A DNA stretch of 64,000 nucleotides. Source: a virus. The stretch lies in the IMG/VR virus record IMGVR_UViG_3300045988_137804, positions 1 through 64,000 of that record, one strand, 5' to 3'. The position numbers and the translations under genes were made by a program. The notes beneath the pieces were generated by a model that was given only the letters and a program-made list of their open reading frames with translations, searched no databases and was not told the DNA's origin. This document shows, piece after piece, positions 1 to 46,899 of the stretch; within the stretch, counting starts at the first letter, position 1; every line of letters begins with the position of its first letter.

Positions 1-238
1 TCAAATTCACAGAAGTTTACCAGTTTCCAATCTTTTTTGAATGAATTTATGCTTTTATCAGTATTCATAAAAATCCCTTATTTATAGGGGATTGCGCAAT
101 CTCTTTATTCTAGAATTTACCTGTTTTCACCTTTCTTAATTTTAAAAACTCCTCGCTTTCAAGGCATTTGCAACTACCATGTGAAAGCATAAATTCATTC
201 AAAAAAGATTGGAAACTGGTAAACTTCTGTGAATTTGA
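1..238. repeat. Perfect 55-bp inverted repeat (arms 1-55 and 184-238) with a 128-bp spacer; the left arm runs to the window edge and may extend beyond it
   Basis: The reverse complement of nt 1-55 equals nt 184-238 exactly. The right arm is the 5' coding sequence of the methyltransferase ORF. The spacer contains the hairpin aatccc-N10-gggatt at about 75-100. Confidence 0.85.
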
Positions 239-32385: not shown

Positions 32386-35300
32386 ATGGTAAGAGTTATT
32401 AAAAGAGATTGCTCTGAAGTTGATTTTGATAAGAATAAAATTTCAACGGCAATCTTAAAGGCTATGAAAAATGGTAGCGGAATTGTTAAACCCAAAATTG
32501 CGGAATCTATTGCAGATGAGATTGAAAAGGAATGTAAGGATCGAGAAGAGATTGATATTTCTGAAATTGAAGCAATGGTATTTGACAAGCTGATTACCAA
32601 AAAACAGAGACTTACTGCAAGAGCATATGAAGGTTATAGAAGTACAAGAGAATTCCAGAGAGAGAATGAGAATACTGTTGACGAGGAAATTCTTGGAATT
32701 GTAGAAGCAAACAACGAAGAATGGAAAGATGAAAATGCGAATAAAAATCCAGCATTAAACCCTACAATTCGTGATTATATTGCTGGATCTGTAAGTAAAG
32801 ACGCAACAAAAAGATTTTTATTATCTCCAGAAATTATTCAGAGTCATTTAGAAGGAATTATTCATTTCCATGATTCAGATTACTTTATTCAACATATGCA
32901 TAACTGCGGATTAGTAAATCTTGAAGATATGCTTCAGAATGGTACTGTTATTAGTGAAACAATGATTGAAAAGCCACATAGTTTTTCTACAGCATGTACC
33001 GTGACTACTCAGATCATTGCTCAAGTTGCATCTAGTCAGTATGGTGGACAGAGTATCTCACTTGCACATCTGGCACCGTTTGTGGATGTTTCCAGAGAGA
33101 AGATCCGTAAGGAAGTGATCAGCGAGCAGGAACTGGTCGGAATGGAATATCCGGAAGATGTGCTCAATGAGATCGTAGAGAGAAGACTGAAAAAAGAGAT
33201 TACAAAAGGTGTTCAAACAATTCAGTACCAGTTAATCACACTTATGACAACAAATGGGCAAGCACCGTTCATCACAATTTTTATGTATCTGAATGAAGCA
33301 AAGAATGAGAGAGAAAAGAAAGACCTAGCGATGTTAATTGAAGAAATGTTACTTCAGAGAAAACTTGGTGTGAAAAATGAAGATGGTGTTTATATTGCAC
33401 CAGCATTTCCAAAACTCATTTATGTTCTTGAGGATGACAATTGTAACGAATCAACAGAATATTGGTATTTAACAGAACTTGCTGCCGAATGCACGTCAAA
33501 AAGATTAGTTCCAGATTACATCTCTGAAAAAGTAATGAAAGAACTTAAAGGTGATGTGTATACATGCATGGGATGTGTTGATGGAAAAGAACTTGTTACA
33601 TATACATATAACAATAATCTTTACGTTGAATCATTTGAAAGAATGTGGAATAGACTTTCTGATAGATTTGAAATAAAACATCAGTATAATGACAACAACC
33701 CAAATCTATATATGGATTTGAGCGATGTAGAAATCTATGACACAGACAAAGGATTTGTTAATACAGAGAGAATAATCAGAAATATATCAACCTCTTGGCT
33801 TGATGTTAATTTTTCCAACGGAAGAAGATTACTTTGTACAGAAGATCACCCACTTACATTAAGAGATGGAAGAACAATCCATGCATCTGAATTAAAATTA
33901 AAGGATAGAATTCTCATTAATTCACATCAGTATAATGAAGAAAATATTGTATTCAATGAAGACAAGGCGTGGTTGTTAGGTTTTATGCTTTGTGATGGAT
34001 GTTATCAAGGCTCTTTATTTTCTTCAATTGCAGCAGAAAATGAAGATGAAATTGCAGATAAGTTTTCAGAAACAATGAAGAAATATTTTGATCTCGATAT
34101 TGAAAAAAAATTACAGCAAAGAGGTAAGAAAGGAACATATTACGATTTGATTGCACATAGTCAGAATGAAAAAATATCTGTGTATTGTAATTATTTCGCT
34201 AAAAAATTCGAAGGTCTGAATAAGATTGATAGACATGTTCCTAATGAAGTATTTTCATGGAATTATTCGTCAAAACTTGCTTTCCTGGCAGGAATGATTG
34301 ATGCAGATGGGTACATTAATAGTTCTCAGAATAAAGGATTTTCTATAGTTCAAATTGGTTCTACAAACAAAGAACTTGCATTACAACAAATGGCACTTGC
34401 ACAGTCTTTAGGTATGCCAGCAAAGCTGTACCATAACCATTACAGTAAACGTAACCCAGAATTGATTAGATACAGAGTTGAGTTTTATCCAACAGATGAA
34501 CTAATTAATTATATTGTATGTAAAAAGAAATATGATAATTATATTGATTCAAATGTATCTAGTTATAATCATGAATCTGAAGTTACTGAAATCAACAAAA
34601 TTAATAAAAAAATGTTTTCTTACGATGTAACAACAACAAGTGAGCATTTTGAAATTAGCGGAATCTATAGTCATAATTGTAGGTCTTTTTTAACTGTTGA
34701 TAGATTTTCTGATAAAGTTGGAAACATTTCTAACGCTAAAAACTTTAATGGAAAACATAAATATTACGGAAGATTTAATCAGGGTGTTGTTACAATTAAT
34801 CTTCCAGATATTGCATTTTCATCTGATGGCGACATGGATAAGTTTTGGGGAATTTTCGAAGAAAGAACAGAATTATGCCATAAGGCTTTAAAGGCTAGAC
34901 ATAACCGTTTGCTTAAAACTTCTTCTGATATTGCACCAATCCTGTGGCAGAACGGAGCATATGCAAGACTTAAAAAACATGAACCAATTGACAAACTTTT
35001 ATTTGATGGATATTCAACGATTTCTCTTGGATATGCAGGACTTTATGAGTGTGTGAAATATATGACAGGAAAATCCCATACAGATGGTGATGTAGGAGAA
35101 AAGTTTGGATTGGAAGTAATGCAAGCATTAAATGATAAATGTAATCAGTGGAAAGAAGCTGAAAACATTGATTATAGTTTGTATGGCAGCCCAATCGAAA
35201 GCACTACGTATAAATTTGCAAAGTGCTTAAAAAATAGATTCGGTGATGATATTTTTATTAAACTTGATGGATTTGATAGAAATTATATTACAAATAGTTA

Positions 35301-35730
35301 TCACGTTCCTGTGTTTGAAAGAATTACAGCATTTGACAAATTTAAAATTGAATCAAAATTCCAAAACCTTAGTCCAGGAGGCGCAATTTCGTATTGTGAA
35401 ATCCCATCAATTAACGTAAATATTCCAGCATTATTGGAAGTAATTAAATTTATTTATGACAATATTATGTACGCAGAAATCAATACAAAAGATTGTTATT
35501 GCGAAGTGTGTGGATACGATGGAGACATTCCACTTATTGACGATGATAACGGTAAACTTGTATGGGAATGCCCTAATTGTGGCAACACAGATAATACAAA
35601 AATGGACATCGCATTTAGAGTTTGTGGTTATGTTGGTACTGCAAAAAATGGTGGAAACCAAGGAAGATATGGAGATATCCACGATAGAGTTTACCACATC
35701 GATGACTTTGAATACGAGGAAAATGAATAA
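32386..35730 (+). CDS. nrdD: Anaerobic ribonucleoside-triphosphate reductase (class III) with an N-terminal ATP-cone and an in-frame intein
   Basis: ATP-cone VIKRDCSEVDFDKNKIS; glycyl-radical motif RVCGYVGT; zinc site CEVCGY...CPNCGN; the extein junction MG|C...SHN|CRSFL. Confidence 0.9.
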   Translation: MVRVIKRDCSEVDFDKNKISTAILKAMKNGSGIVKPKIAESIADEIEKECKDREEIDISEIEAMVFDKLITKKQRLTARAYEGYRSTREFQRENENTVDEEILGIVEANNEEWKDENANKNPALNPTIRDYIAGSVSKDATKRFLLSPEIIQSHLEGIIHFHDSDYFIQHMHNCGLVNLEDMLQNGTVISETMIEKPHSFSTACTVTTQIIAQVASSQYGGQSISLAHLAPFVDVSREKIRKEVISEQELVGMEYPEDVLNEIVERRLKKEITKGVQTIQYQLITLMTTNGQAPFITIFMYLNEAKNEREKKDLAMLIEEMLLQRKLGVKNEDGVYIAPAFPKLIYVLEDDNCNESTEYWYLTELAAECTSKRLVPDYISEKVMKELKGDVYTCMGCVDGKELVTYTYNNNLYVESFERMWNRLSDRFEIKHQYNDNNPNLYMDLSDVEIYDTDKGFVNTERIIRNISTSWLDVNFSNGRRLLCTEDHPLTLRDGRTIHASELKLKDRILINSHQYNEENIVFNEDKAWLLGFMLCDGCYQGSLFSSIAAENEDEIADKFSETMKKYFDLDIEKKLQQRGKKGTYYDLIAHSQNEKISVYCNYFAKKFEGLNKIDRHVPNEVFSWNYSSKLAFLAGMIDADGYINSSQNKGFSIVQIGSTNKELALQQMALAQSLGMPAKLYHNHYSKRNPELIRYRVEFYPTDELINYIVCKKKYDNYIDSNVSSYNHESEVTEINKINKKMFSYDVTTTSEHFEISGIYSHNCRSFLTVDRFSDKVGNISNAKNFNGKHKYYGRFNQGVVTINLPDIAFSSDGDMDKFWGIFEERTELCHKALKARHNRLLKTSSDIAPILWQNGAYARLKKHEPIDKLLFDGYSTISLGYAGLYECVKYMTGKSHTDGDVGEKFGLEVMQALNDKCNQWKEAENIDYSLYGSPIESTTYKFAKCLKNRFGDDIFIKLDGFDRNYITNSYHVPVFERITAFDKFKIESKFQNLSPGGAISYCEIPSINVNIPALLEVIKFIYDNIMYAEINTKDCYCEVCGYDGDIPLIDDDNGKLVWECPNCGNTDNTKMDIAFRVCGYVGTAKNGGNQGRYGDIHDRVYHIDDFEYEENE
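33574..34677 (+). mobile_element. Intein (368 aa) carrying a LAGLIDADG homing-endonuclease domain, inserted in nrdD at the conserved MGCRSF site
   Basis: Starts with Cys (CVDGKE), ends with HN followed by Cys; LAGLIDADG motifs LLGFMLCDGCY and LAGMIDADGYI. Confidence 0.75.
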
Positions 35731-36615: not shown

Positions 36616-37365
36616 ATGGCGAATAAATTATTAGAATATAAAAATAGATTTCGTTTACGTGTACCTATTTGCGAATCAACTCATGATTTTTCACGTAAGC
36701 TAGATGGAAGTTTAGAAGATATTGATATCTATGTTGATTGTGCTTGTGATTGTAAAATTTTTCATTATGGTCATAAAATTTTTGAAGCATATATTCCATC
36801 TATACAAAGAGGACATAACATTTTAAAACAATTATATTATGAAAATATTAATCCAAATAATGTAAATGTTACTGAGAAAGAAATGGTAGCAAGAGGAACA
36901 AAAACAACAAAACTTTCTTACCATATCATCGACAATGATCTATATAAATCAGAATTAAAATCATCAGATTTTTTCCCATTTATTCAGGAATCAGATTCAG
37001 AAGTTATCTTTAGATTTCACGAAAAAGATTTTGAGAAAGTAATTAAATTATTAAAACCAAAAACTCTTGGTGCAGGTATTTCTCCATTCAGTACGAAGAA
37101 TTTACCTAAACGAAAGTATGAAATAAGTGATGACCAGTTAAGAGAATATAAGAGTATAAACGACTCTATTCCTCAGTCTGATAAATTAAAGCTCTCAAGA
37201 ATTACGAGCGATTTTATCAACAATATTATGTCGAAAAACAAACGATATAATATTGTTGATATGAAAAAATTAATGAGAAAAAAGATGCTAAATGGTAAAG
37301 AATTTATTCACGAAGAAGGTTTCTGGAATGAATATATTTCTTATTTAAAGAAGAGATTGTGGTGA
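36616..37365 (+). CDS. hypothetical protein
   Basis: ORF only. Confidence 0.3.
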   Translation: MANKLLEYKNRFRLRVPICESTHDFSRKLDGSLEDIDIYVDCACDCKIFHYGHKIFEAYIPSIQRGHNILKQLYYENINPNNVNVTEKEMVARGTKTTKLSYHIIDNDLYKSELKSSDFFPFIQESDSEVIFRFHEKDFEKVIKLLKPKTLGAGISPFSTKNLPKRKYEISDDQLREYKSINDSIPQSDKLKLSRITSDFINNIMSKNKRYNIVDMKKLMRKKMLNGKEFIHEEGFWNEYISYLKKRLW

Positions 37366-37371
37366 AGAAAA

Positions 37372-37719
37372 ATGAAACAATTAAAGTTGAGTAAAAAATG
37401 CAAGCATGAAGATTTAGTTGCGTATGGTTTCAGAAAACACGGACTGAATTATAAACTTTCAGTTCCATTATATACATATAAAAAGATTCCGGTTATTAGT
37501 GTAAGTTTTCTCGTTTCATGTCTTGATAATTATGTTGGTTATGATGTGATCGACAACAATTCTGACATGATTTACACAGCTTATTATGACACAAGTTTGT
37601 GCGGAGAGAATAAAGTATTAGAGAAAGTTAAACGAAAACTTGATGAAGTTTTTGAGGAAATGACTGAGAAAAATATTTTAAAAGGAGATAAAGAAGATGC
37701 AGAGAATTGCGAAATTTAG
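37372..37719 (+). CDS. hypothetical protein
   Basis: ORF only. Confidence 0.3.
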   Translation: MKQLKLSKKCKHEDLVAYGFRKHGLNYKLSVPLYTYKKIPVISVSFLVSCLDNYVGYDVIDNNSDMIYTAYYDTSLCGENKVLEKVKRKLDEVFEEMTEKNILKGDKEDAENCEI

Positions 37720-38203
37720 TAAAGTTAGTTTTGAACAGTTTAAAAAAGATTGGATTGATACATTTGGAGATGTAACAGAAGATAAGATTAAAGAGGTTTA
37801 TGATAACATTAAATTGCCAAAAAGAGCTACTGCAATGTCAGCAGGTCATGATATAAGCATTCCATTTGATACAAGTATTAAGAATGGCGAGGTTGTAAAA
37901 ATTCCTACCGGAATTCGATGCAAAATGGATGATGGATATGTAATGTTTGTGTTCCCCCGAAGTAGCATGGGAATTAAAAAAGGAATGGTAATTTGTAATA
38001 CTATTCCTGTAATTGATGGAGATTATTTTGGAGCAGATAACGAAGGTCATATCTTTATTTGTGTCACAAATACATACAAAAAATCAATAGAATTAAATTC
38101 TGGGGATAATATTGTACAGGCAGTTTTCACTAAATTTGGTGTAGCAGATGACGAAAAAATTACAGAAAAACGATTGGGAGGAGTTGGTAGCACTGGATTA
38201 TAA
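37697..38203 (+). CDS. dut: dUTP diphosphatase
   Basis: Motif 3 PVIDGDYFG and the C-terminal motif 5 RLGGVGSTGL. Confidence 0.8.
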   Translation: MQRIAKFSKVSFEQFKKDWIDTFGDVTEDKIKEVYDNIKLPKRATAMSAGHDISIPFDTSIKNGEVVKIPTGIRCKMDDGYVMFVFPRSSMGIKKGMVICNTIPVIDGDYFGADNEGHIFICVTNTYKKSIELNSGDNIVQAVFTKFGVADDEKITEKRLGGVGSTGL

Positions 38204-38855
38204 ACCTATAGATTTTGACGAATCAAAAGAAGTATGGAAATTATGTGATGATTATCCTGGCAATTATATTAGTAATTATGGAAGAGTTAAAAGGGATTCT
38301 TATACATATCATTATAAAAATGGAAAAATAAAAAATTACAAGCCTATAATAAAAAAATTAACTGAAACTAGCAAAAGGAAAGGTACAATTCAAGGGTATT
38401 TATGTACTCGAATGATTGGTTCTGATGGAAATAGTAAATGTGAAATGGGTCATAGGCTTGTAGCAAAAGCTTTTATTCCTAACCCAAATAACCTACCTAC
38501 AGTAAATCATAAAAATGGCAATAAACATGATAACCGAGTAGAAAATTTAGAATGGACTTCTTATTCTGACAACAATCAACATGCATACGCAAATGGCTTA
38601 AAAGGCGATAATGTTATAATGCTACAAGTTGACCAAGATAATTATATCAAACAAATATATTTTTCTGAAGAATATGCAGCGTTATGTAATTGTTTATCTA
38701 CGAAAAACATTAGAAATAGTTCTGAGAAAAATACGTTAGATTATTATAATAATAAATGGATTAGATTTTATCCAAACAAATACAAAATTACAGTAGACGA
38801 CAACGCAACGGAAGTTCGCAATGGTGGTTTCGGATCTACAACAAAATCTAAATAA
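38148..38855 (+). CDS. HNH homing endonuclease with an N-terminal NUMOD4-like motif; its 5' end overlaps the dut 3' end by 56 nt in another frame
   Basis: NUMOD4-like YPGNYISNYGRVKR; HNH motif VNHKNGNKHDNRVENLEW. Confidence 0.7.
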   Translation: MTKKLQKNDWEELVALDYKPIDFDESKEVWKLCDDYPGNYISNYGRVKRDSYTYHYKNGKIKNYKPIIKKLTETSKRKGTIQGYLCTRMIGSDGNSKCEMGHRLVAKAFIPNPNNLPTVNHKNGNKHDNRVENLEWTSYSDNNQHAYANGLKGDNVIMLQVDQDNYIKQIYFSEEYAALCNCLSTKNIRNSSEKNTLDYYNNKWIRFYPNKYKITVDDNATEVRNGGFGSTTKSK

Positions 38856-38871
38856 ACACATGTAATAATTA

Positions 38872-38899
38872 TTGACAGGAATGCATAGTGTGGTAAAAT
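38872..38899 (+). promoter_or_regulatory. Strong sigma-70-like promoter TTGACA-N16-TGgTAAAAT (extended -10), embraced by the inverted repeat ggaatgcat / atgcattcc (38878-86 and 38911-19)
   Basis: attgacaggaatgcatagtgtggtaaaatg; it points toward the repeat region and tnsA. Confidence 0.45.
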
Positions 38900-39039
38900 G
38901 ATACTAACAAATGCATTCCTCTATGTCCCTATGCAATCCAAATTTGCATTTTTTCATCAAAATTGTGTAAATTATTTTTGCACTTTTGTCGAGCGTCAAA
39001 TAAACGAAATAGTTTACAAAATAGACATAGAAGGTAGTG

Positions 39040-39441
39040 TTTTTGGGAAAATCTAAGAAAATGGTTTTAGTACCCAATTTTTGCTCTATGTCGAGTTCGA
39101 AAAATGGCTTAAAATAAGGCTTTTTTGAGGGTCAAAATCCTAATGAAATACCAATTTCATTCGAACTCAAAATCCACATTAAAAAGTAAAAATAAAGGGT
39201 ACTAGACTTAGCAAATTGCTGGTTTAGTACCCTTTTATAAAACGCAAAAATTATTTGCCCCAAAAGTGCAAAATTAGATTACACAATGACATAGAGAATT
39301 TCCCAAAAACGATTTTTGGGAAGAAGATGAAAATGCCGATAAAGCCCGTGGTTGACACGTTTTCTCTTTCCCAAAAATTTTCCCAAAAATGAAGAAAAAG
39401 TTCCCAAAAACGATTTTTGGGGAAAATAGCCATTTTTGGGA
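39040..39441. repeat. Array of 8 copies of a 9-bp motif (TCCCAAAAA forward, TTTTTGGGA inverse), including two 21-bp perfect palindromes; candidate TnsB-binding or operator sites immediately upstream of tnsA
   Basis: Palindromes tcccaaaaa-cga-tttttggga at 39301-39321 and 39402-39422. Other copies at 39040, 39369, 39381 and 39433. The TTGGGAA core resembles the Tn7 end-repeat core. Confidence 0.6.
39197..39238. terminator. Hairpin gggtacta-N20-tagtaccc (with an inner palindrome agcaa-t-ttgct) followed by ttttat; a possible bidirectional terminator or attenuator
   Basis: aaagggtactagacttagcaaattgctggtttagtacccttttataaa, with an A-run upstream and a T-run downstream. Confidence 0.4.
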
Positions 39442-39518
39442 AGCTTTATTCTTACACATGAATGCATTTGTTATTCATCAAAAACTGTATAAACATACAG
39501 ATGAAAGGAGCAAATGCT

Positions 39519-39863
39519 ATGCAGAAAAAGAATTACAAAGGTCGCTGCGAGAAATTAACAGTGCCAAAATCTAAGGATGTCTGCCATATCTATAATGACA
39601 TCCAAAAGTCTTATCTATTACAACTTCAGGACGATCCAAACATCAAAGAGATAAAATGTAATGTCCTTATGCTTGGATTGGAACTTGGAGAATTCACATC
39701 TGATTTTCAGTGTGTTACAGCAGACAACAATCTAATAGTGCGTGAATGTATCTCACGAGATGCTATCGCCAAACCAATGACAGCAAAACGATTAGATGCT
39801 TCAAGAGAGTATTGGTTTCGTCATGGCATAACAGATTGGGGGATTGTAACCGATGAAAAATAA
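39519..39863 (+). CDS. tnsA: TnsA-like small protein (putative PD-(D/E)xK endonuclease fold, possibly degenerate) at the first position of a Tn7-like operon
   Basis: RBS aaaggag 9 nt upstream; TSDF...IVREC resembles the TnsA TPDF...VEVK region but the lysine is not conserved; the stop overlaps the tnsB start. Confidence 0.4.
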   Translation: MQKKNYKGRCEKLTVPKSKDVCHIYNDIQKSYLLQLQDDPNIKEIKCNVLMLGLELGEFTSDFQCVTADNNLIVRECISRDAIAKPMTAKRLDASREYWFRHGITDWGIVTDEK

Positions 39864-41661
39864 GAGTCTATTTTATAATCCAAAAACCAAAGAAATATTT
39901 CGTGTGTTAGACAGTAAAGGTTCAAAAGTTCTTATCATTAATTGCACAAAGAAACAGATGCCTTATTGGACAGAATTCGATTCAATTTCTTCCTGTCGTT
40001 TAATCACAGAAGATGAATTACAGGACATGACTGGCACACATTTTCAAGAACTAACTGTACCATCAAAAGAATACAGATATGTTCAAGAAAGGTTTTCACT
40101 GATTTCAAATATCATTCCTATCATCGGAAATAAAAGCAAGCGTACTCAGATGATACGAATCATATCTGAAACAAATAATTGCAGTAAACAAACAATCAAA
40201 AACATCTTGTGCCAGTATCTCATCTATCAAAATATTTCTGCATTAGCACCGCAAAAGAGCAATGAAAAAGAACTAACAACAGATGAGAAAAACATGCGTT
40301 GGGCATTAAATAAGTTCTTCTATACAAAGAATAAGAATTCATTATCAACCGCTTACGTCATGATGCTTAAAGAAAAATATACAGATGAATACAACAACTT
40401 ATTACCACACCCAACCATTCATCAGTTCCGTTATTTCTATCGCAAAACAAAAAAGATGGAAACGTATTATATCTCAAGAGATGGCATAAAAGATTACCAA
40501 AGAAATCACAGACCATTGCTAGGAGAAGGAATTAGAACAGTTGCAAATAGCATTGGAACAGCTATGTTGGATTATACAATCTGTGATATTTATCTCGTAA
40601 ACGATAAACAAGAATTAATTGGTCGTCCATTAATGACAGCTTGCATTGATGTCTACAGCGGATTGTGTTGTGGTTACTCATTAACATGGGAAGGTGGAAT
40701 GTACAGTTTGCGTTCTTTGATGTTAAATGTGGTCACTAATAAGAAAGAACATTGTAGAAAGTTTGGAATAAATATCGAAGAATCCGACTGGAATTGTCAT
40801 CAATTACCTGCAACATTAATCACAGATAAAGGTTCAGAATATGCGTCAGAAAACTTTGAACAACTTACAGATTTAGGAGTGTCTATTATAAATCTACCAG
40901 CCTATAGACCAGAGTTAAAAGGATCAGTTGAAAAGTTTTTTGATATGATTCAATCACTTTATAAGCCACAGTTACTAGGAAAAGGTGTCATAGAATCTGA
41001 TTTCCAGGAACGTGGCTCACATGATTATAGAAGAGATGCTTGTCTAACATTAGAACAATTTGAAAAAATAATTCTTCGTTGCATCATCTATTATAATACA
41101 CAGAGAATTATCAAAAATTCACCACTGATTGAACAAAATATTCCGCCACATTCTTGTGACATATGGAACTATTATTTGACCTATAATGATGACTTTTTGA
41201 TAAGAATATCGCCACAGAATCTACTTTTATGTTTGCTACCAAGAACGAAAGGAGTGTTTAAAAGAAATGGTTTAAACGTCAATAGTCTCCGCTATAAGCA
41301 TAAAACATACACCGAAATGTATCTTGTAGGAGGAGATGTAACAGTAGCCTACAATCCAGAAGATGTTTCTTACATTTGGCTCATTGAAGAAAATGGAACG
41401 TATGTAAAATTTGAATTAATCAATTCTCAGTTCTATGGAAAGGATTTATCATTTGTAGAAAAATATATGGAGTCATCTAAGAAGCTAATTGCAGAAAATA
41501 CCGATGATAATTTACGAGCAAAAGTTACGCTTTCAAAAGATATAGATTTTGTAATTTCTGAAAGTGTACGTTCTAATGTAAGCACAAAAAATATCCGCAA
41601 GAATCGTCAGAAAGAACAGGAACTTACTCATAGAGATTTCGTAAAGGAGTATGAATTATGA
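39853..41661 (+). CDS. tnsB: Tn7-like transposase TnsB (Mu-type DDE transposase / rve integrase core)
   Basis: DDE core with LITDKGSEY and KGSVEKFFDMIQ; an N-terminal DNA-binding region; 602 aa. Confidence 0.85.
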   Translation: MKNKSLFYNPKTKEIFRVLDSKGSKVLIINCTKKQMPYWTEFDSISSCRLITEDELQDMTGTHFQELTVPSKEYRYVQERFSLISNIIPIIGNKSKRTQMIRIISETNNCSKQTIKNILCQYLIYQNISALAPQKSNEKELTTDEKNMRWALNKFFYTKNKNSLSTAYVMMLKEKYTDEYNNLLPHPTIHQFRYFYRKTKKMETYYISRDGIKDYQRNHRPLLGEGIRTVANSIGTAMLDYTICDIYLVNDKQELIGRPLMTACIDVYSGLCCGYSLTWEGGMYSLRSLMLNVVTNKKEHCRKFGINIEESDWNCHQLPATLITDKGSEYASENFEQLTDLGVSIINLPAYRPELKGSVEKFFDMIQSLYKPQLLGKGVIESDFQERGSHDYRRDACLTLEQFEKIILRCIIYYNTQRIIKNSPLIEQNIPPHSCDIWNYYLTYNDDFLIRISPQNLLLCLLPRTKGVFKRNGLNVNSLRYKHKTYTEMYLVGGDVTVAYNPEDVSYIWLIEENGTYVKFELINSQFYGKDLSFVEKYMESSKKLIAENTDDNLRAKVTLSKDIDFVISESVRSNVSTKNIRKNRQKEQELTHRDFVKEYEL

Positions 41662-42917
41662 TTAATATGAATAAAGTAATCAAAGAACTTCCTGATATGC
41701 TGTCCGGAAATGAACTTCAGAAAGCAATGTCTATTATTCCAAAATACGACAAACAGATTCAGGAAGATGGAAGTATGACCGAAAGACTTTTGAAATTATC
41801 TGACCTTTATAGCATTTATATTCCATCACAAATGTCTACTGAAATTTATAGCAAACTATATCTTGGAATCATTCGTTCTATGCAGAAAAAAGGAAACAAG
41901 TTAACTGTACAACAATTCAATTCAACTTATAGAACGATGCAGAATATTAAGAATAAAACTGGCAATCAGCAATATGATGGAATCATAGGTGGATCAGATT
42001 CATTTACAATTATTGGTGCAAGTGGGATAGGAAAATCATCAGCTATTTCTCGTGCATTGAATCTGATTGAAGCAAATCATGTAATAGAAATTGAACAGCC
42101 TTACACTAAAATACTTCCATGCTTAACAGTGCAATGTCCATTCGATTCTTCTGTAAAAGGATTATTACTTGAAATTCTTCGCAAAGTTGATGAGCAGTTA
42201 GGAACAGATTATGCACAAACAAAAAGGTTCACGACTGATATGCTTATAGGTGCTGTTAGTCAGGTGTGTTTAAATCATATTGGCTTGCTTGTTGTAGACG
42301 AAATACAGAACGTAGTTAATTCAAAGAACGGCAAGAACTTAATCGGATCATTGACGCAGCTAATCAACAATTCAGGCATTAGCATCTGCATGGTTGGAAC
42401 ACCAGATAGTGAAATATTCTTTGAACAGGCTATGCAATTAGCTCGTAGAAGTGTCGGATTAAAATACACAGCTTTGCCATACGATGAACATTTTTGCGAA
42501 GTATGTGAATGCTTATTTTCTTACCAATATGTAAAAAATATCACATATATAAATAGCACGACTATAGAATGGTTGTATCAACACAGTGCAGGAGTTATCT
42601 CTATTGTTGTATCATTAATTCATGATGCACAAGAGATTGCAATCTTAAATGGGAGAGAAGTATTAGATATTAAATCGTTAGACGAAGCATACAACAATAG
42701 ACTTTCTATGTTGCACGATTATATTAGACCTACTATGAGAAAGAAATCTATCGGCAATAATAAAATAAAGAAACAAAATATCATTACAACTTTGTCGATA
42801 AAAAATAGCGCAGATATTCAAACAGATTTAATACAAAGTCTTGCGAAAGAATGTAAGAAAGATGGAACAGATATTGTAGAAATACTGAGTCAACATATTA
42901 CAATTGAGGTGATTTAA
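41658..42917 (+). CDS. tnsC: Tn7-like AAA+ transposition regulator TnsC/TniB
   Basis: Walker A IIGASGIGKSSAIS and Walker B LLVVDEIQNV; coupled to tnsB and tnsD. Confidence 0.8.
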   Translation: MINMNKVIKELPDMLSGNELQKAMSIIPKYDKQIQEDGSMTERLLKLSDLYSIYIPSQMSTEIYSKLYLGIIRSMQKKGNKLTVQQFNSTYRTMQNIKNKTGNQQYDGIIGGSDSFTIIGASGIGKSSAISRALNLIEANHVIEIEQPYTKILPCLTVQCPFDSSVKGLLLEILRKVDEQLGTDYAQTKRFTTDMLIGAVSQVCLNHIGLLVVDEIQNVVNSKNGKNLIGSLTQLINNSGISICMVGTPDSEIFFEQAMQLARRSVGLKYTALPYDEHFCEVCECLFSYQYVKNITYINSTTIEWLYQHSAGVISIVVSLIHDAQEIAILNGREVLDIKSLDEAYNNRLSMLHDYIRPTMRKKSIGNNKIKKQNIITTLSIKNSADIQTDLIQSLAKECKKDGTDIVEILSQHITIEVI

Positions 42918-44318
42918 ATGATTGGATTTATGCCTAAATTATATCCAGATGAATTAGTGTATAGTTGGATTGCTAGGTATCATGTAAGAACTGGACATTA
43001 TAGTTATCAGCAAACAGCAAAACATCTACTAGATAAGAAAGCAAATATTGTCTCGAAAAAGTTTTTAAACGAATACTCAAATGAATTTTTTAACATCATC
43101 AAAAAGAATATTCCAATAAAAGAGTTAGTAATAAATCATAGTATGCTGTCAGCTTATATTAAATTTTTGCCAAAAGATAAGCGCAATAATCTAATAGAAT
43201 CCTATGAAAACAATTTAAGATATAAAGAGTCATCAATTGGATTTAAGACAAGAAGTAATGGTATTAGTATGCGATATTGTCCTATATGTGTAAAGGAAGA
43301 TCGAGAAAAATATGGAGAAACTTACTGGCACAGAGAACATCAATTTGTTGGAATTAATGTATGCACAAAGCATAAATGTTATCTTATAGATTCCAAAATG
43401 TCTGTAAAAAGTATTGATAAGTCTGAGTTTTATACCGCAGAATATGTCATAGAACAACATGATGATGTTAAGATTTCCAATAATGAGTATGAGATAAAGT
43501 TTGCCAAGTATTTTACAGAAGTCATAAATACAGAGTCAAATAATGACTCAAATATTGTGGAATATCTCAATACTATATTATTGAACTCAAAGTATAGAGC
43601 AAATGGATGTATGCTAAAAGATTTTAATAAATTGTACGATGATTATTCTGAATTATGCGAAAAGATTAATGTAAATATAATTTCTTCACAACCATCGTTA
43701 AGAGAGATATTAAAAAATAAACGCAGAACATTGGATATTTGTATCCTTGGAATGCTATTGAATATTTCGCCTTACGATCTCGTGAATAGAGTATTGCCAA
43801 ATACAAACAAAGAGGATATCAGAGAGCAAGTCATATTTTTAAGAGATGTAAAAAAGATGAGTTATAATCGTATTGCAAAAGAATTAAACGCAAGTAGAAG
43901 AGCAGTTGGTACAATATATCATAGTAAAAAAACTGAAAATGATTTAGATGTTCTTAAACTTCTTAAAGATGAACTGCCAAAATTCTATAATGGAGATTTA
44001 ACTAATGGAAGACCGCAAAAAATAACAGTATACACAGTTGAAAAACAATTTGATATTCCACAAAAAGTATTAATAAATAATAAATCCTATTATAACGAAA
44101 TAATCAAGTATGAAGAGTCTTATCCTGAATATTGGGCGAGAGAATTAGTATGGTCTTATAATAAACTAAAGGAAGATAAAGCATATATAAGTCAAAATAA
44201 AATAACCAAACAAATAAATATTCGTAAGGAGCAACCTGTAAAAGCTATACCATACATCTCTAAATATACAGACAAAGAAACTGCTGAAGCTATTAAATCA
44301 TTATTGCAAAAATCGTAA
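42918..44318 (+). CDS. tnsD: TniQ/TnsD-family target-selection protein
   Basis: TniQ N-terminus MPKLYPDELVYSWIARYHV; zinc finger CPICVKEDREKYGETYWHREHQFVGINVCTKHKC; C-terminal HTH MSYNRIAKELNASRRAVGTIY. Confidence 0.8.
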   Translation: MIGFMPKLYPDELVYSWIARYHVRTGHYSYQQTAKHLLDKKANIVSKKFLNEYSNEFFNIIKKNIPIKELVINHSMLSAYIKFLPKDKRNNLIESYENNLRYKESSIGFKTRSNGISMRYCPICVKEDREKYGETYWHREHQFVGINVCTKHKCYLIDSKMSVKSIDKSEFYTAEYVIEQHDDVKISNNEYEIKFAKYFTEVINTESNNDSNIVEYLNTILLNSKYRANGCMLKDFNKLYDDYSELCEKINVNIISSQPSLREILKNKRRTLDICILGMLLNISPYDLVNRVLPNTNKEDIREQVIFLRDVKKMSYNRIAKELNASRRAVGTIYHSKKTENDLDVLKLLKDELPKFYNGDLTNGRPQKITVYTVEKQFDIPQKVLINNKSYYNEIIKYEESYPEYWARELVWSYNKLKEDKAYISQNKITKQINIRKEQPVKAIPYISKYTDKETAEAIKSLLQKS

Positions 44319-44324
44319 AAAAAT

Positions 44325-44360
44325 GGGGAATAGAAGAGTATTAAATCTCAACTATTCCCC
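44325..44360. terminator. Bidirectional rho-independent terminator between convergent tnsD and the endolysin gene
   Basis: ggggaatag-N18-ctattcccc, flanked by an A-run on one side and a T-rich stretch on the other strand. Confidence 0.5.
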
Positions 44361-44378
44361 ATAATTAATTATAGAAAA

Positions 44379-45524
44379 TTATTTTAAAGCACCGCTTGAA
44401 TTAAAGCTATATTCTTTTCCACCTATTTTAATTATTTCATTACAAGCCATTGATCCATCATCTTTAAGATAATATTTTGTGCCTTTATCTGTAACCCAAT
44501 GATTTCTCATCATTGCTCCGACTGGGATACAATCCTTATCTTTATTATACCAATACCATTTATTATTTTTTTTTAACCAACCAGTTACCATTGAACATCC
44601 TGGAAATCCAGAGACTTCTCCACTTGATACAAAATAATAATCATTTGTCCCATCATTATATTCGCCTAAAACTGCTGAACCAGTTTGATGATTTTTACCT
44701 CCACTTGTTCTCAATAGATACCAAAAACCATCAATTTTTCTCCAACCCGTAACCATCGCACCGATTGCATAATATGGCGTATTAGATTCACTTAAATAAT
44801 ACCAGTCGCCATTATCACAAAGCCAACCAGTTTTCATACTGCAATCATCATTAAAATAATACCAATGTCCATTTATTGATTCCCATTTATTATTTATAGC
44901 ATAACCATTTTTGTCAAAGTAGTACCAAACGTTATCTAGACATTTCCACTGTTCCTTTGGGTATGATTCGTCATCATTTCTATACCACCAGCCAATATTG
45001 TCTTTTTTCCAACCAACAGATATTTTATTAGTAATATCTTTCTTGAACTGATTCCAAATAGAAGAGTCACAACCGTTTGCACCCCAACCTGTCCAACCTG
45101 GACAAGACTTAGAGCATACATCCCAATGACGAACAACATGAGCTGCATCGATGTTATATTTCTTCATAAGTGTTTTAGTAAGTTCAACTGTATTTCTATA
45201 TGTTCCATCAGAAATCTTTCCGTCTGTAGAACACATTTCGATGCTAATTGAATTACTATTCGTACATTTTCCAAATAAGTTATTTGAACCGTAATTTCTT
45301 CCAACAGCCCAAGCCGTGTCACTATCGGAAACTACCTGTACTACGTTCTCTGTATCAACGAAATAATGAGCAGATGCACCACGGTTAGTACTTTTAAAGT
45401 AGTTGCCGTTGTTCACAGATTTGTCCCACCAATTTCCTGTGTAGTGAATTACAATATACTTTCTTCCGTTATTACCTTTTGTGTAATTAACTTTAGTAAG
45501 GTTTTGAATAAGTTTGTAAGCCAT
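44379..45524 (-). CDS. Endolysin: N-acetylmuramoyl-L-alanine amidase (PGRP/Amidase_2) with C-terminal choline-binding-like cell-wall-binding repeats
   Basis: Amidase_2-like N-terminal domain (IVIHYTGN...ASAHYFVD); C-terminal tandem repeats such as GWKKDNIGWWYRNDD, WYYFDKNGYA, HWYYFNDD and GWLKKNNKWYWYN. Confidence 0.85.
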   Translation of the reverse strand: MAYKLIQNLTKVNYTKGNNGRKYIVIHYTGNWWDKSVNNGNYFKSTNRGASAHYFVDTENVVQVVSDSDTAWAVGRNYGSNNLFGKCTNSNSISIEMCSTDGKISDGTYRNTVELTKTLMKKYNIDAAHVVRHWDVCSKSCPGWTGWGANGCDSSIWNQFKKDITNKISVGWKKDNIGWWYRNDDESYPKEQWKCLDNVWYYFDKNGYAINNKWESINGHWYYFNDDCSMKTGWLCDNGDWYYLSESNTPYYAIGAMVTGWRKIDGFWYLLRTSGGKNHQTGSAVLGEYNDGTNDYYFVSSGEVSGFPGCSMVTGWLKKNNKWYWYNKDKDCIPVGAMMRNHWVTDKGTKYYLKDDGSMACNEIIKIGGKEYSFNSSGALK

Positions 45525-45624
45525 AAAAATACCTCCTTTGAAATAAAAGAACTTTATAGATACAAAAAGAGAGCAACGAATAAAATCGTCACTCTCTGAA
45601 TTAATAAAATTAGATATTTAGTTG

Positions 45625-46887: not shown

Positions 46888-46899
46888 ATAATCCCTCCT

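What the first reader, a model, noticed from the sequence alone, without database searches (positions are those of the whole stretch)
38872..39461. Highly structured 600-bp leader upstream of tnsA: strong promoter, terminator-like hairpin and an 8-copy TCCCAAAAA / TTTTTGGGA repeat array
A near-consensus promoter (TTGACA-N16-TGgTAAAAT) sits at 38872-38899, framed by the inverted repeat ggaatgcat / atgcattcc. It overlaps a TGTGG pentamer, the usual first five bases of Tn7-family termini. About 300 nt downstream a GC-clamped hairpin with a T-run (39197-39238) would end a short non-coding transcript or act as an attenuator. Four copies of CTATGTC / GACATAG and two of GAGTTCGAA / TTCGAACTC are scattered in mixed orientation. 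The last 150 bp before the tnsA RBS holds 7 copies of a 9-mer arranged partly as two perfect 21-bp palindromes, and an eighth copy lies at 39040. This could be a Tn7-type right end (terminus plus TnsB sites, with TnsB autoregulating the tnsAB promoter), an operator set for a dimeric repressor, or a small regulatory RNA locus.
Basis: seen in the sequence. Interest (0 to 1): 0.55.

Follow-up and report, generated by a model that had tools for sequence, protein, structure and literature searches.

The report
Mini-transposon that integrates a jumbo phage
The "leader" in front of the transposase genes of this roughly 205-kb gut phage contains a complete 368-bp mini-transposon, and its transposition into a specific bacterial site appears to carry the whole phage into the chromosome, which is an unusual way for a phage to become a prophage.

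Summary
The interpretation needs changing.

- **The element.** Window 38924-39291 is a 368-bp mini-transposon ("arc") with inverted TGTC...GACA termini and two TnsB-type sites at each end. It lies beside a tnsA-like/tnsB/tnsC/tniQ operon, not around it.
- **States found at one chromosomal locus in other metagenomes:**
  - an empty site, 35 bp after a polysaccharide-deacetylase gene;
  - a solo arc with a 5-bp duplication (ACACA);
  - host|arc|tns genes and phage;
  - phage and promoter P1|arc|host.
- **A second site.** A solo arc in a radical-SAM gene has an AAGGT duplication, and removing it restores the reading frame.
- **Assembly breaks.** Contigs from at least 10 samples break exactly at the arc's right terminus.
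- **Resulting structure.** The prophage is flanked by two direct arc copies, as in a cointegrate.
- **Mechanism (inferred).** The 114-aa TnsA homologue lacks two catalytic residues, so replicative transposition is inferred.
- **9-mer array.** It lies outside the arc. It is conserved across the family, and its motif changes in concert between lineages. It is probably an operator array for a protein encoded by the module.
- **P1 and the hairpin.** Promoter P1 sits at a fixed distance from the arc in five lineages. The hairpin is a terminator carried inside the arc.

I found no description of this arrangement in the searchable literature.

The parts
38872..38899 (+). Promoter P1 (TTGACA-N16-TGgTAAAAT). 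It lies in the phage backbone and points into the arc. Its -10 ends 24 nt before the arc terminus.
   Evidence: Scores 11/12 with an extended -10. A 10-12/12 promoter sits 22-25 nt before the TGT terminus in five lineages: window, L004, L042, L045 and L053/L057.
38878..38919 (.). Operator-like inverted repeat GGAATGCAT / ATGCATTCC around the -10 and the start of P1. A third GAATGCAT copy lies at 39460-39467.
   Evidence: Coordinates. All three copies change together in L004, to GTAATGCAT / ATGCATTAC / GTAATGCAT.
38905..38918 (+). TAACAAATGCATTC, perfectly complementary to 39460-39473 in the tns leader. Either a shared operator or an RNA-RNA pairing.
   Evidence: 14-nt perfect inverted repeat. 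It is 16 nt in L004 and 13 nt in L023, and absent in distant lineages.
38919..38923 (.). Left donor flank CTCTA. It is phage backbone and is not transferred.
   Evidence: In integrated copies it is replaced by host sequence.
38924..39291 (.). The arc: a 368-bp mini-transposon with 5'-TGTC...GACA-3' termini.
   Evidence: Solo copies carry 5-bp target duplications: AAGGT in L021, and ACACA in L076 and L077, compared with the empty site L078. L014 begins exactly at TGTC. Contig breaks fall exactly at ...GACA|.
38924..38953 (+). Terminal transposase-type site A (TGTCCCTATGCAATCCAAATTTGCA...).
   Evidence: Host|TGTC junctions in L006, L017, L025, L021, L022, L076 and L077.
38958..38988 (+). Subterminal site B (..ATTGTGTAAATTATTTTTGCAC..).
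   Evidence: The pattern ATTGTGTAANNWAWTTTTGCAC matches only here and at site C in the whole 64 kb. Alignment.
38999..39027 (-). Internal right-end-like site E, ending ...AGACA|TAGAA. A pseudo-terminus.
   Evidence: The arc looks like two tandem mini-elements (38924-39027 and 39089-39291) separated by a 61-bp backbone-like spacer.
39040..39048 (+). The one copy of the 9-mer TTTTTGGGA that lies inside the arc, in the 61-bp spacer.
   Evidence: It is retained in the solo arcs L076 and L077.
39089..39121 (+). Internal left-end-like site F (CTCTA|TGTC...). A pseudo-terminus, weak in this lineage.
   Evidence: In the L006-type arcs the same position reads TGTTGATTTTGTAAAATCC, which resembles site E by eye.
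39194..39235 (.). Strong hairpin carried inside the arc. Terminator-like on both strands.
   Evidence: Folds at -24.7 kcal/mol, z = -6.7, on the plus strand and -19.1 kcal/mol, z = -4.5, on the minus strand. The arc inserts into the loop of the host's own terminator-like hairpin. The arcs of L004, L042, L045 and L053 each carry a different hairpin followed by a T-run (read by eye).
39239..39265 (-). Subterminal site D.
39262..39291 (-). Terminal site C (reverse complement TGTCATTGTGTAATCTAATTTTGCAC...).
   Evidence...GACA|host junctions in L021, L027, L028, L076 and L077.
39292..39296 (.). Right donor flank TAGAG. It is phage backbone.
   Evidence: Conserved as TAGAG, TAGTA, TAGAA, TAGTG or TATAG in relatives. 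Replaced by host DNA at right junctions.
39299..39445 (.). 9-mer array (TCCCAAAAA / TTTTTGGGA; 6 exact copies and 1 variant here). It lies outside the arc and flanks a conserved TTGACA.
   Evidence: An array in the same place occurs in 40-odd relatives, with lineage-specific motifs TCCCAAAAA, TCCTAAAAA, TCCCCAAAA and TCCGAAAAA.
39352..39357 (+). Conserved -35-like TTGACA between the two halves of the array. No good -10 follows it.
   Evidence: The block GATAAAGCCCGTGGTTGACAC is conserved in L004 and L006. The promoter scan did not call it.
39519..39863 (+). Mini-TnsA: a 114-aa homologue of the TnsA N-terminal domain, predicted to be catalytically impaired.
   Evidence: Pfam PF08722, E = 0.094 for the window protein, and 24 of 31 family members match, best E = 8e-8. 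A family profile hits Tn7 TnsA 1F1Z at E = 0.0011. hhalign probability is 84.5%. D62 corresponds to D114 and is conserved. Q29 stands at the position of E63, and I/V78 at the position of K132.
39853..41661 (+). TnsB-type DDE transposase (602 aa).
   Evidence: Pfam Mu-transpos_C. Precomputed HTH_TnsB domain on homologues. D240, D325 and E360 are invariant among 12 homologues; I read these as the DDE triad.
41658..42917 (+). TnsC/TniB-type AAA+ ATPase (419 aa).
   Evidence: Pfam TniB, E = 5.8e-13, and AAA_22.
42918..44318 (+). TniQ/TnsD-type target selector (466 aa) with a helix-turn-helix in the C-terminal half.
   Evidence: Pfam TniQ, E = 6.3e-21, and Sigma70_r4_2 at residues 303-332.

Best explanation
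Window 38872-39461 is the integration locus of a roughly 205-kb phage. It contains a 368-bp mini-transposon (the arc, 38924-39291) that sits next to its transposition genes rather than around them. Those genes encode a mini-TnsA, TnsB, TnsC and TniQ.

**Proposed mechanism.**
1. TnsB binds sites A and B and sites D and C at the two arc ends.
2. TniQ recognises the 3' end of a host polysaccharide-deacetylase gene and, through TnsC, directs insertion about 35 bp downstream. The insertion point is the loop of a hairpin that looks like the host terminator, and the orientation is fixed.
3. The TnsA homologue lacks two catalytic residues, so only the 3' ends of the arc are cut. Transposition from the circular phage genome is therefore replicative.
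4. The product is a cointegrate: host | arc | TAGAG, 9-mer array, tns genes ... whole phage ... P1, CTCTA | arc | host, with a 5-bp target duplication. That cointegrate is the prophage.
5. Recombination between the two direct arc copies would release the phage circle and leave a solo arc as a scar.

**Roles of the other features.**
- The arc carries its own two-way terminator. This would replace the host hairpin it splits and shield the tns operon from read-through.
- The 9-mer array lies in the backbone between the arc and the operon. It is most likely an operator or enhancer-like array for a protein encoded by the module, TnsB being the first candidate, controlling tns expression.
- P1 is a conserved strong promoter at a fixed distance from the left terminus. 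Its role is unresolved.

**Shown versus inferred.** Shown: the arc boundaries, the target duplications, the empty site, the solo arc, both junction types, the fixed orientation and distance, and conservation across lineages. Inferred: the replicative chemistry, who binds the 9-mers, how the prophage excises, and what P1 does.
For: **Boundaries and mobility.**
- L021 has a solo arc inside a radical-SAM gene, flanked by AAGGT on both sides. Removing the arc and one AAGGT copy restores a 532-codon reading frame.
- L076 and L077, from two samples, have a solo arc flanked by ACACA. The empty site L078 has a single ACACA.

**Prophage junctions at the same chromosomal locus.**
- Left junction: deacetylase stop, then 34-38 bp, then |TGTC-arc-GACA|TAGAG, array, tns genes, lysin and tail genes. 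Seen in L006, L025 and L017.
- Right junction: nrdD, dUTPase, HNH, P1, CTCTA|arc|, then the ABC-F and patatin genes, in L027. That flank is 95% identical to the right side of the empty site L078.
- A further left junction (L022) and a further right junction (L028) lie at other sites.

**Free phage form, with one arc.** Seen in the window, L018, L019 and L023, and in the 79%-identity lineage L004. The phage record is 204,597 bp.

**Assembly-graph signature.** Contigs built with k = 31 (7 samples), k = 141 (2 samples) and k = 115 (1 sample) begin exactly 30, 141 and 115 nt before ...GACA|. L014 begins exactly at TGTC.

**Machinery.**
- TnsB, TniB and TniQ domains are present.
- The mini-TnsA is homologous to TnsA, but has Q at the position of E63 and I or V at the position of K132 across the family, and has no C-terminal domain.
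- Tn7-type systems without functional TnsA give cointegrates that include the donor backbone (PMC8188705; PMC8649781).

**Generality.** 44 viral contigs, many of 200-222 kb, carry the module at 48-58% TnsB identity. Those examined show an arc-like inverted repeat, an ACA|TAG right junction and a lineage-specific repeat array. A P1-type promoter was found in five lineages.
Against: - No single contig that I could read shows both prophage junctions with the same duplication. The left and right junctions at the deacetylase locus come from different samples.
- The same structure would arise if a solo arc were seeded first and the phage then entered by homologous recombination.
- Loss of TnsA activity is predicted from sequence only. 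D62 and E76 are conserved, so some activity cannot be excluded.
- No resolvase or excision function was identified.
- The binder of the 9-mers is unknown. Resemblance between the 9-mer and the inner half of the end sites is seen in two lineages but not in a third.
- Strong terminators inside the arcs argue against P1 driving the tns operon directly.
- Metagenome assemblers can pick any path through a 368-bp repeat, so an individual scaffold could be chimeric.
Confidence: 0.65

Rival explanations
1. Two-step, Campbell-type integration. The arc transposes on its own into the att site. The phage then integrates by homologous recombination between its own arc and the chromosomal solo arc, through RecA or a phage recombinase. 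On this view the arc is a portable homology patch and the prophage is not a direct transposition product.
For: Solo arcs with target duplications exist at exactly the site where prophages are found (versus 20). The final structure would be identical to a cointegrate. Arc remnants at the site show repeated use.
Against: A simple insertion by cut-and-paste needs 5'-strand cleavage, and the TnsA homologue lacks two catalytic residues. With replicative chemistry, the first product from a circular phage donor is already the cointegrate, so solo arcs are more simply explained as excision scars. L022 shows a host|arc|phage junction at a non-att site, a radical-SAM gene. For that, a solo arc would have had to be seeded there first.
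Confidence: 0.2
2. The region is a conventional Tn7-type right end that encloses the tns genes. The 9-mers are the TnsB end-binding sites, and a left end lies elsewhere.
For: The region is next to tnsA-like and tnsB genes. The 9-mers are conserved across the family and change in concert with the module. In Tn7, TnsB binding at the right end represses the tnsAB promoter (my own knowledge of Tn7).
Against: The 9-mers occur nowhere else in the 64 kb. The end-site pattern also matches only inside the arc, so no second end was found. Both termini lie within 368 bp and face outwards. Host junctions fall at 38924 and 39291, and solo arcs lack the array and the tns genes. The sequence left of 38924 shows no matching inverted repeat or end-site pattern, yet it is the prophage's other boundary.
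Confidence: 0.04
3. The main product of the locus is a small non-coding RNA, running from P1 to the hairpin (about 330 nt). It would regulate or guide transposition, for example by pairing through its 5' 14 nt with the tns leader at 39460-39473.
For: The P1 promoter is conserved at a fixed distance from the arc in five lineages, and each arc examined has a terminator-like hairpin. There is a 14-16-nt complementarity that changes in step in L004.
Against: No Rfam family matches. The strong fold of the region (z = -9.4) is an automatic consequence of the DNA-level inverted repeats. The complementarity is absent in the L042, L045 and L053 lineages. A third GAATGCAT copy lies upstream of the transcription start, which fits a DNA operator better. 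The arc interior is not conserved between lineages.
Confidence: 0.1
4. Assembly artefact. The host-phage junctions and solo arcs are chimeric paths through a repeat, and the phage never integrates.
For: All evidence comes from short-read metagenome assemblies. A 368-bp repeat is longer than any k-mer used.
Against: A repeat node needs at least two real contexts to exist at all. The junctions are precise to the base in more than 20 independent samples and four assembler settings. Target duplications match the empty site. Removing the arc restores a reading frame. Left and right flanks map to the two sides of one chromosomal locus.
Confidence: 0.02

Closest known systems
Tn7 and Tn7-like transposons, TnsD/TniQ attachment-site pathway
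   Same: It has a TnsB-type DDE transposase, a TnsC/TniB ATPase and a TniQ selector. Termini are TGT...ACA with several binding sites per end, and the target duplication is 5 bp. Insertion is in one orientation at a fixed short distance downstream of a conserved gene: deacetylase here, and guaA in the relative L012.
   Different: The transposition genes lie outside the ends. The mobile unit is 368 bp with no genes. The TnsA homologue is only the N-terminal domain and lacks two catalytic residues. What ends up integrated is the whole donor replicon, a 205-kb phage.
Cointegrate formation by Tn7-type systems without functional TnsA (type V-K CAST, TnsA mutants; PMC8188705, PMC8649781)
   Same: The predicted chemistry and the product are the same: duplicated transposon copies flanking the inserted donor backbone. 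The usual laboratory set-up, a mini-transposon on a vector, has the same layout.
   Different: In the laboratory the cointegrate is treated as an unwanted by-product. Here it appears to be the selected natural outcome, serving as a phage's route to lysogeny, and no resolvase lies next to the module.
Transposable phages (Mu and Mu-like)
   Same: These are phages that use a DDE transposase with a Mu-type C-terminal domain, plus an AAA+ partner, to enter the host chromosome with a 5-bp duplication.
   Different: In Mu the whole genome is the transposon, with ends at the genome termini. Integration is near-random, and replication is by repeated transposition. Here the ends are 368 bp apart at one spot in a circular map, integration is site-specific through TniQ, and the prophage carries a duplicated mini-element at both borders.
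Tn5053/Tn402 family (TniA-TniB-TniQ-TniR)
   Same: It shares a TniA/TnsB-like transposase, TniB and TniQ, and replicative transposition through a cointegrate.
   Different: That family carries a resolvase and a res site inside the element, and its genes lie between the ends. No resolvase gene is present in the module here. A TnsA-like gene is present.
Replicon fusion by replicative transposons and IS elements, and Campbell-type phage integration
   Same: The outcome is the same: a circular replicon inserted into the chromosome between two direct repeats, able to leave again by recombination between them.
   Different: Targeting is by a dedicated Tn7-type selector, not random. The repeat is a purpose-built mini-transposon kept next to its enzymes. 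No tyrosine or serine integrase with an attP/attB core is involved.

Membership tests
Tn7-like transposon | TnsB-type DDE transposase | tested here: met
   Pfam Mu-transpos_C, E = 1.5e-7. Homologues carry a precomputed HTH_TnsB domain. D240, D325 and E360 are invariant in 12 homologues.
Tn7-like transposon | TnsC/TniB AAA+ regulator and TniQ/TnsD target selector encoded next to tnsB | tested here: met
   Pfam TniB, E = 5.8e-13, and TniQ, E = 6.3e-21, in the two genes that follow tnsB.
Tn7-like transposon | Inverted termini 5'-TGT...ACA-3' with several transposase-binding repeats at each end | tested here: met
   Termini TGTC (38924) and GACA (39291). Sites A and B face sites D and C. Protein binding itself was not tested.
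Tn7-like transposon | 5-bp target-site duplication | tested here: met
   AAGGT in L021. ACACA in L076 and L077, against a single copy in the empty site L078.
Tn7-like transposon | Orientation-specific insertion at a fixed distance downstream of a conserved gene | tested here: met
   The insertion lies 34-38 bp after the deacetylase stop codon, with the same end proximal to the gene, in L006, L017, L025, L076 and L077, even where the spacer sequence differs. The relative L012 sits 7 bp after guaA.
Tn7-like transposon | Transposition genes carried between the two ends | tested here: not met
   The operon starts 228 bp beyond the right terminus. Solo arcs contain no genes.
TnsA endonuclease (Tn7 type) | Homology to the TnsA N-terminal restriction-enzyme-like domain | tested here: met
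   A family profile hits 1F1Z at E = 0.0011 as the top match. 24 of 31 members match PF08722. hhalign probability is 84.5%.
TnsA endonuclease (Tn7 type) | Catalytic residues E63, D114 and K132 | tested here: not met
   D62 corresponds to D114 and is invariant. The K132 position is I or V throughout the family. The E63 position is mostly Q.
TnsA endonuclease (Tn7 type) | C-terminal domain | tested here: not met
   The protein ends at residue 114. Most family representatives listed are about 105-200 aa, and nearly all of the full-length matches are 110-125 aa.
Tn5053/Tn402 family | Resolvase (TniR) and res site within the element | tested here: not met
   No recombinase domain was found in the genes from 36616 to 48618. 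The rest of the 205-kb genome was not searched.
Mu-like transposable phage | The whole phage genome is bounded by the transposase-binding ends | tested here: not met
   The two ends are 368 bp apart and face outwards. No end-site pattern matches elsewhere in the 64 kb. The prophage borders are two copies of the arc.
Known RNA family (Rfam) | Covariance-model match at or above the gathering score | tested here: not met
   The best match is rli56 at 27.2 bits against a gathering score of 47, E = 0.037.
Intrinsic terminator | G+C-rich hairpin followed by a U-run | tested here: inconclusive
   The hairpin is strong, -24.7 kcal/mol, z = -6.7. The plus-strand tail is only UUUUAUAAAA. The minus-strand tail, UUUAUUUUU, is better. 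The consensus scan did not call it.

The most novel reading that the evidence does not exclude
A whole clade of roughly 200-220-kb gut phages establishes lysogeny without an integrase. It would use TniQ-targeted replicative transposition of a gene-less mini-transposon of a few hundred bp, kept beside (not around) a domesticated Tn7-type operon. One transposition event would then insert more than 200 kb at a defined chromosomal site and leave a reusable solo copy on excision. The conserved promoter 22-25 nt outside the left terminus, and the backbone repeat array, would be dedicated control elements of this transposition-as-integrase module.
Probability: 0.55. Interest if true: 0.88.

Novelty: new variant of a known kind. 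Interest (0 to 1): 0.82.

Why it matters
- **Phage biology.** If right, this is a route to lysogeny distinct from integrases and from Mu-type whole-genome transposition. It would be used by abundant jumbo phages of the human gut, a group usually discussed as lytic.
- **Transposon annotation.** A Tn7-type machine can be selected for cointegrate formation, with its genes outside the ends. This changes how such elements should be delimited in genomes, because pipelines that look for ends around the tns genes would miss or mis-bound them.
- **Chromosomal scars.** It explains the solo mini-elements and remnants at the att site as traces of past lysogeny.
- **Engineering.** It offers a natural, protein-targeted system in which the payload does not have to sit between transposon ends. 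That is relevant to the insertion of very large DNA.

Tried and rejected
- **Rfam scan of 38700-39700 at permissive thresholds.** Nothing credible.
- **Similarity searches.** Megablast of 38000-45000 against GenBank phages gave no match. tblastn with TnsB found only distant Acinetobacter tniA genes. The single-protein scan and the end-sequence scan of IMG/VR found nothing. Only an alignment-based scan found the viral relatives.
- **Whole phage as a Mu-like transposon.** Rejected. The sequence left of 38924 shows no matching inverted repeat or end-site pattern, and no other end-site pattern match exists in the window.
- **Contig breaks caused by a perfect inverted repeat.** Rejected. Sites A, B and C are not identical over 30 nt, and the break scales exactly with k at ...GACA|.
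- **Arc interior as a captured copy of the host att site.** I considered this because 30 nt of the L017 flank equals 39152-39181. I rejected it after L027 and L078 showed that the flank is a decayed resident arc and that the true empty site is unrelated.
- **The 9-mer as the inner half of the TnsB end site.** There is a partial resemblance in the window lineage and in L042, but not in L053, so this is undecided.
- **P1 5' end pairing with the tns leader as a general feature.** Seen only in the close lineages.
- **Structure prediction of the mini-TnsA.** Not run. The family alignment came from a search whose hits that tool does not accept.
Full report
**1. What the window is**

The window is low in G+C (about 33%). 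Genes run on the plus strand up to about 44.3 kb and on the minus strand after that. Upstream of the finding lie phage nucleotide-metabolism genes: an nrdD with an intein, a dUTPase and an HNH endonuclease. Downstream lie a choline-binding amidase lysin and tail-fibre genes.

An exact protein look-up places the sequence in NCBI record LR756492.1 (assembly GCA_902729495.1), which is 204,597 bp. The window appears to correspond to about 33,590-97,589 of that record. It is therefore a jumbo phage.

Between the dUTPase/HNH genes and the lysin lies a four-gene operon:
- a 114-aa protein, 39519-39863;
- a TnsB-type transposase, 39853-41661;
- a TniB/TnsC-type ATPase, 41658-42917;
- a TniQ protein, 42918-44318.

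**2. The observation**

- The promoter at 38872-38899 scores 11/12 with a TG extension.
- The GGAATGCAT/ATGCATTCC repeat frames it.
- The hairpin at 39194-39235 folds at -24.7 kcal/mol, z = -6.7.
- The 9-mer TTTTTGGGA occurs 7 times against 1.3 expected. All copies lie within 39040-39441, with an eighth variant copy.
- CTATGTC/GACATAG occurs four times here. GAGTTCGAA/TTCGAACTC occurs twice, and these are its only copies in the window.
- The TGTGG pentamer is uninformative, with 74 copies in the window.
- Only one of the two palindromes has perfect arms.

Long inverted repeats pair 38919-38988 with 39261-39296.

**3. The inverted repeats are the two ends of a mini-transposon**

Four sites share a common pattern: TGTC, then aTTGTGyAAt, then about four bases, then aWTTTTGCAc.
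- Site A (38924) and site B (38958) lie on the plus strand.
- Site D (39265) and site C (39291) lie on the minus strand.
- Together they delimit 38924-39291, a 368-bp unit I call the arc. On each strand it begins 5'-TGTC.

Evidence that this unit moves:
- **L021.** The arc sits inside a radical-SAM gene, flanked by a direct AAGGT repeat. Deleting the arc and one AAGGT copy restores a 532-codon reading frame.
- **L076 and L077.** In two separate samples the arc sits 35 bp after the stop codon of a polysaccharide-deacetylase gene, flanked by ACACA.
- **L078.** The same locus is empty and has a single ACACA. It lies in the loop of what looks like the terminator hairpin shared by the deacetylase gene and a convergent ABC-F gene.

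**4. The phage is integrated through this unit**

At the same chromosomal locus:
- **Left junction (L006, L025, L017; three samples).** Deacetylase stop codon, 34-38 bp, then |TGTC-arc-GACA|TAGAG, the 9-mer array, the tns operon, lysin and tail genes. L006 is a 287,853-bp scaffold with at least 9 kb of bacterial genes to the left.
- **Right junction (L027).** It reads nrdD, dUTPase, HNH, P1, CTCTA|TGTC-arc-GACA|. A decayed partial arc and a toxin-antitoxin pair follow. Then come the ABC-F and patatin genes, which are 95% identical to the right side of the empty site L078.

At other sites:
- L028, a 209,343-bp scaffold, shows a right junction.
- L022 shows a left junction at the radical-SAM site.

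The free-phage arrangement has a single arc between P1 and the array. It is found in the window, L018 (a 160,806-bp contig), L019 and L023. It is also found in L004, whose TnsB is only 79% identical.

The integrated phage is therefore bounded by two direct copies of the arc. This is the structure of a cointegrate between a circular donor and the chromosome.

**5. An independent signature from assembly graphs**

- Seven Logan contigs (k = 31) begin exactly 30 nt before ...GACA|.
- Two MEGAHIT k141 contigs begin 141 nt before it, and one k115 contig begins 115 nt before it.
- L014 begins exactly at TGTC.
- In distant lineages, two IMG/VR contigs begin 55 nt before the equivalent terminus.

This is what a de Bruijn graph gives when a sequence has two different right-hand neighbours diverging at one base. 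It shows that the junction 39291|39292 is polymorphic in at least ten further samples.

**6. Why replicative transposition is inferred**

The 114-aa protein belongs to a family of mostly short proteins. There are 420 representatives at 50% clustering, and nearly all full-length matches are 110-125 aa.
- Its profile finds Tn7 TnsA (1F1Z) as the top match among solved structures, E = 0.0011.
- 24 of 31 members match Pfam Tn7_TnsA-like_N.
- hhalign covers TnsA residues 42-170 at 84.5% probability. Residues 110-167 agree.

In these alignments:
- D62 corresponds to D114 and is invariant.
- E76 corresponds to Q130.
- The catalytic K132 position is I or V in the whole family.
- The E63 position is mostly Q.
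- The TnsA C-terminal domain is missing.

Published work shows that Tn7-type systems lacking functional TnsA transpose by copy-and-paste. The resulting cointegrates contain duplicated transposon copies and the donor backbone (PMC8188705, abstract; PMC8649781, sections 11 and 13).

With the tns genes in the backbone of a circular phage, the cointegrate is the prophage. This step is an inference. The same end product could come from a solo arc followed by homologous recombination, which is the main rival.

**7. Targeting**

- The insertion point lies 34-38 bp after the deacetylase stop codon in five loci.
- The A end is always proximal to the gene.
- This holds even in L017, where the spacer sequence is unrelated because it is an old arc remnant.

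Fixed distance and orientation from a sequence inside the 3' end of a gene is how TnsD/TniQ-directed insertion behaves in Tn7. That comparison rests on my own knowledge of Tn7 biology. The binding itself was not tested.

A relative in a metagenome-assembled genome (L012) sits 7 bp after guaA. The radical-SAM site and the L028 site show that other sites are used as well.

**8. The 9-mer array**

The array lies outside the arc, from 5 bp beyond the right terminus to about 70 bp before the start codon. It flanks a conserved TTGACA that has no good -10. One further copy lies inside the arc, in a 61-bp spacer.

In relatives, the commonest 9-mer upstream of tnsB is a lineage-specific variant:
- TCCCAAAAA;
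- TCCTAAAAA, in another group of 200-220-kb phages;
- TCCCCAAAA;
- TCCGAAAAA.

In the loci read in detail, the array lies between an ...ACA|TAG junction and the small gene. All copies change together within a lineage, and the array travels with the module even where the neighbouring genes are defence genes rather than recognised phage genes. Both points suggest a binder encoded by the module.

TnsB is the first candidate, by analogy with Tn7 TnsB repressing its own promoter and with MuA binding the Mu enhancer/operator (both analogies from my own knowledge). The sequence resemblance to the end sites is inconsistent between lineages, so I hold this loosely.

**9. P1 and the hairpin**

A near-consensus promoter, scoring 10-12 of 12, ends 22-25 nt before the left terminus and points into the arc. 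This holds in five lineages whose TnsB is 48-79% identical to the window's.
- In a cointegrate, P1 ends up about 205 kb away from the tns operon, at the other prophage border.
- Each arc examined also carries a terminator-like hairpin, which differs in sequence between lineages.
- Because the arc inserts into the host's terminator-like loop, this hairpin plausibly restores termination for the two convergent host genes. It would also insulate the tns operon from read-through.
- What P1 is for remains open. It could make a short end-spanning transcript, interfere with end binding, or regulate in a way that depends on whether the phage is free or integrated.
- In the window lineage, three GAATGCAT boxes link P1 and the tns leader and change together in L004. 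One of them lies upstream of the transcription start. This favours a shared DNA operator over RNA pairing.

**10. Internal structure of the arc**

Pseudo-termini lie at ...AGACA|TAGAA (ending 39027) and CTCTA|TGTC (starting 39089). They divide the arc into two mini-elements separated by a backbone-like 61-bp spacer that holds one 9-mer. This looks like the trace of an old duplication of the whole end-plus-backbone arrangement.

The interior, 38953-39261, is not conserved in L004. The ends and both flanks are.

**11. Spread**

- TnsB relatives at 91-96% identity occur in many gut metagenome contigs.
- An alignment-based scan of IMG/VR found 44 viral loci at 48-58% identity. Ten of them are on contigs of 200-222 kb.
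- The host deacetylase gene belongs to clusters with thousands of member sequences and has no named close relative. The nearest named proteins are from Mediterraneibacter and Dubosiella, at 51-56% identity.

**12. Comparison with what is known**

The parts belong to the Tn7 family:
- the machinery;
- TGT/ACA ends with several sites each;
- the 5-bp duplication;
- att-site targeting.

Two defining features fail. The genes are not between the ends, and the TnsA homologue lacks catalytic residues and the C-terminal domain.
- It is not a Mu-type phage, because the ends do not bound the genome.
- It is not a Tn5053-type element, because there is no resolvase in the module and a TnsA-like gene is present.

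Functionally, it is the natural counterpart of the cointegrates seen with mini-transposon donor plasmids in TnsA-deficient systems.

Seven full-text searches found no description of phage integration by this route. They combined Tn7-like, TniQ, TnsB, prophage, cointegrate, lysogeny, jumbo or huge phage, and the accession numbers. That library lacks most subscription journals, so prior description cannot be excluded.

**13. Verdict**

It is wrong about which bases are the terminus, about the element enclosing the genes, and about the 9-mers being end sites.
- I consider the structural conclusion secure: a 368-bp mobile arc, with the prophage flanked by two copies at a TniQ-type att site.
- The replicative mechanism is likely.
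- The roles of the 9-mer array and of P1 are reasoned guesses.

Noticed in passing
window 37697-38855: The HNH endonuclease ORF (38148-38855) overlaps the 3' end of the dUTPase ORF and ends with the tail ...NGGFGSTTKSK. In L004, which has no HNH gene, a near-identical tail is the C-terminus of the dUTPase itself. The HNH gene therefore looks like a homing-endonuclease insertion, possibly intron-borne, near the 3' end of the dUTPase gene.
   Followed up: partly
window 32386-35730; L027/L028 2832-6159: In this phage the anaerobic ribonucleotide reductase gene nrdD carries an intein with a LAGLIDADG domain. In close relatives the same gene is split into two ORFs by an I-HmuI-like HNH gene. Different selfish elements occupy the same gene.
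   Followed up: no
window 1-238: There is a perfect 55-nt inverted repeat (1-55 and 184-238) with a 128-nt spacer, between two DNA-methylase genes. It is the longest inverted repeat in the window. The 160,806-bp contig of L018 appears to end inside it.
   Followed up: no
L027 10677-10796 and L017 97-134: A decayed partial arc lies at the att site, beside the newly inserted prophage. It comprises an interior segment, the hairpin, sites D' and C', and the terminus. The site has therefore been used repeatedly, and any target immunity is not absolute. In L027 a Gp49/HTH toxin-antitoxin pair lies between this remnant and the ABC-F gene.
   Followed up: partly
window 39093-39135 versus L006 9236-9290: The arc interior exists in two quite different alleles among otherwise 93-97% identical arcs. 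The window, L017, L025, L027 and L028 share one allele. L006, L014, L023, L076 and L077 share the other, and L021 and L022 carry a variant of it.
   Followed up: no
window 44379-45524 and the lysin genes of L006, L013, L014, L017: The lysin next to tniQ is swapped among near-identical phages. Versions seen are Amidase_2 with choline-binding repeats, Amidase_3 with or without choline-binding repeats, and one with a GIY-YIG gene next to it.
   Followed up: no
L001 7567-7965; L073 7633-8031: Some close relatives carry a 132-aa ORF with a weak Phage_integrase match between the lysin and the tail-fibre genes. The window has no counterpart at that position. It is too short to be a complete recombinase.
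   Followed up: no
window 44325-44372: A hairpin (GGGGAATAG...CTATTCCCC) fills the 60-bp gap between the convergent tniQ and lysin genes. It is presumably a two-way terminator. It leaves no room for a transposon end on that side of the operon.
   Followed up: partly
L009 2235-8977; L010 11021-11923: In metagenome-assembled genomes, modules of this family lie next to defence genes: an MmeI-type restriction-modification enzyme, a protein with a Schlafen/AlbA_2 domain, an AAA-ATPase with a PD-(D/E)xK nuclease domain, and Abi_2. These contigs begin or end close to or within the module or its arc, so I could not tell whether those elements are phages or other replicons.
   Followed up: partly
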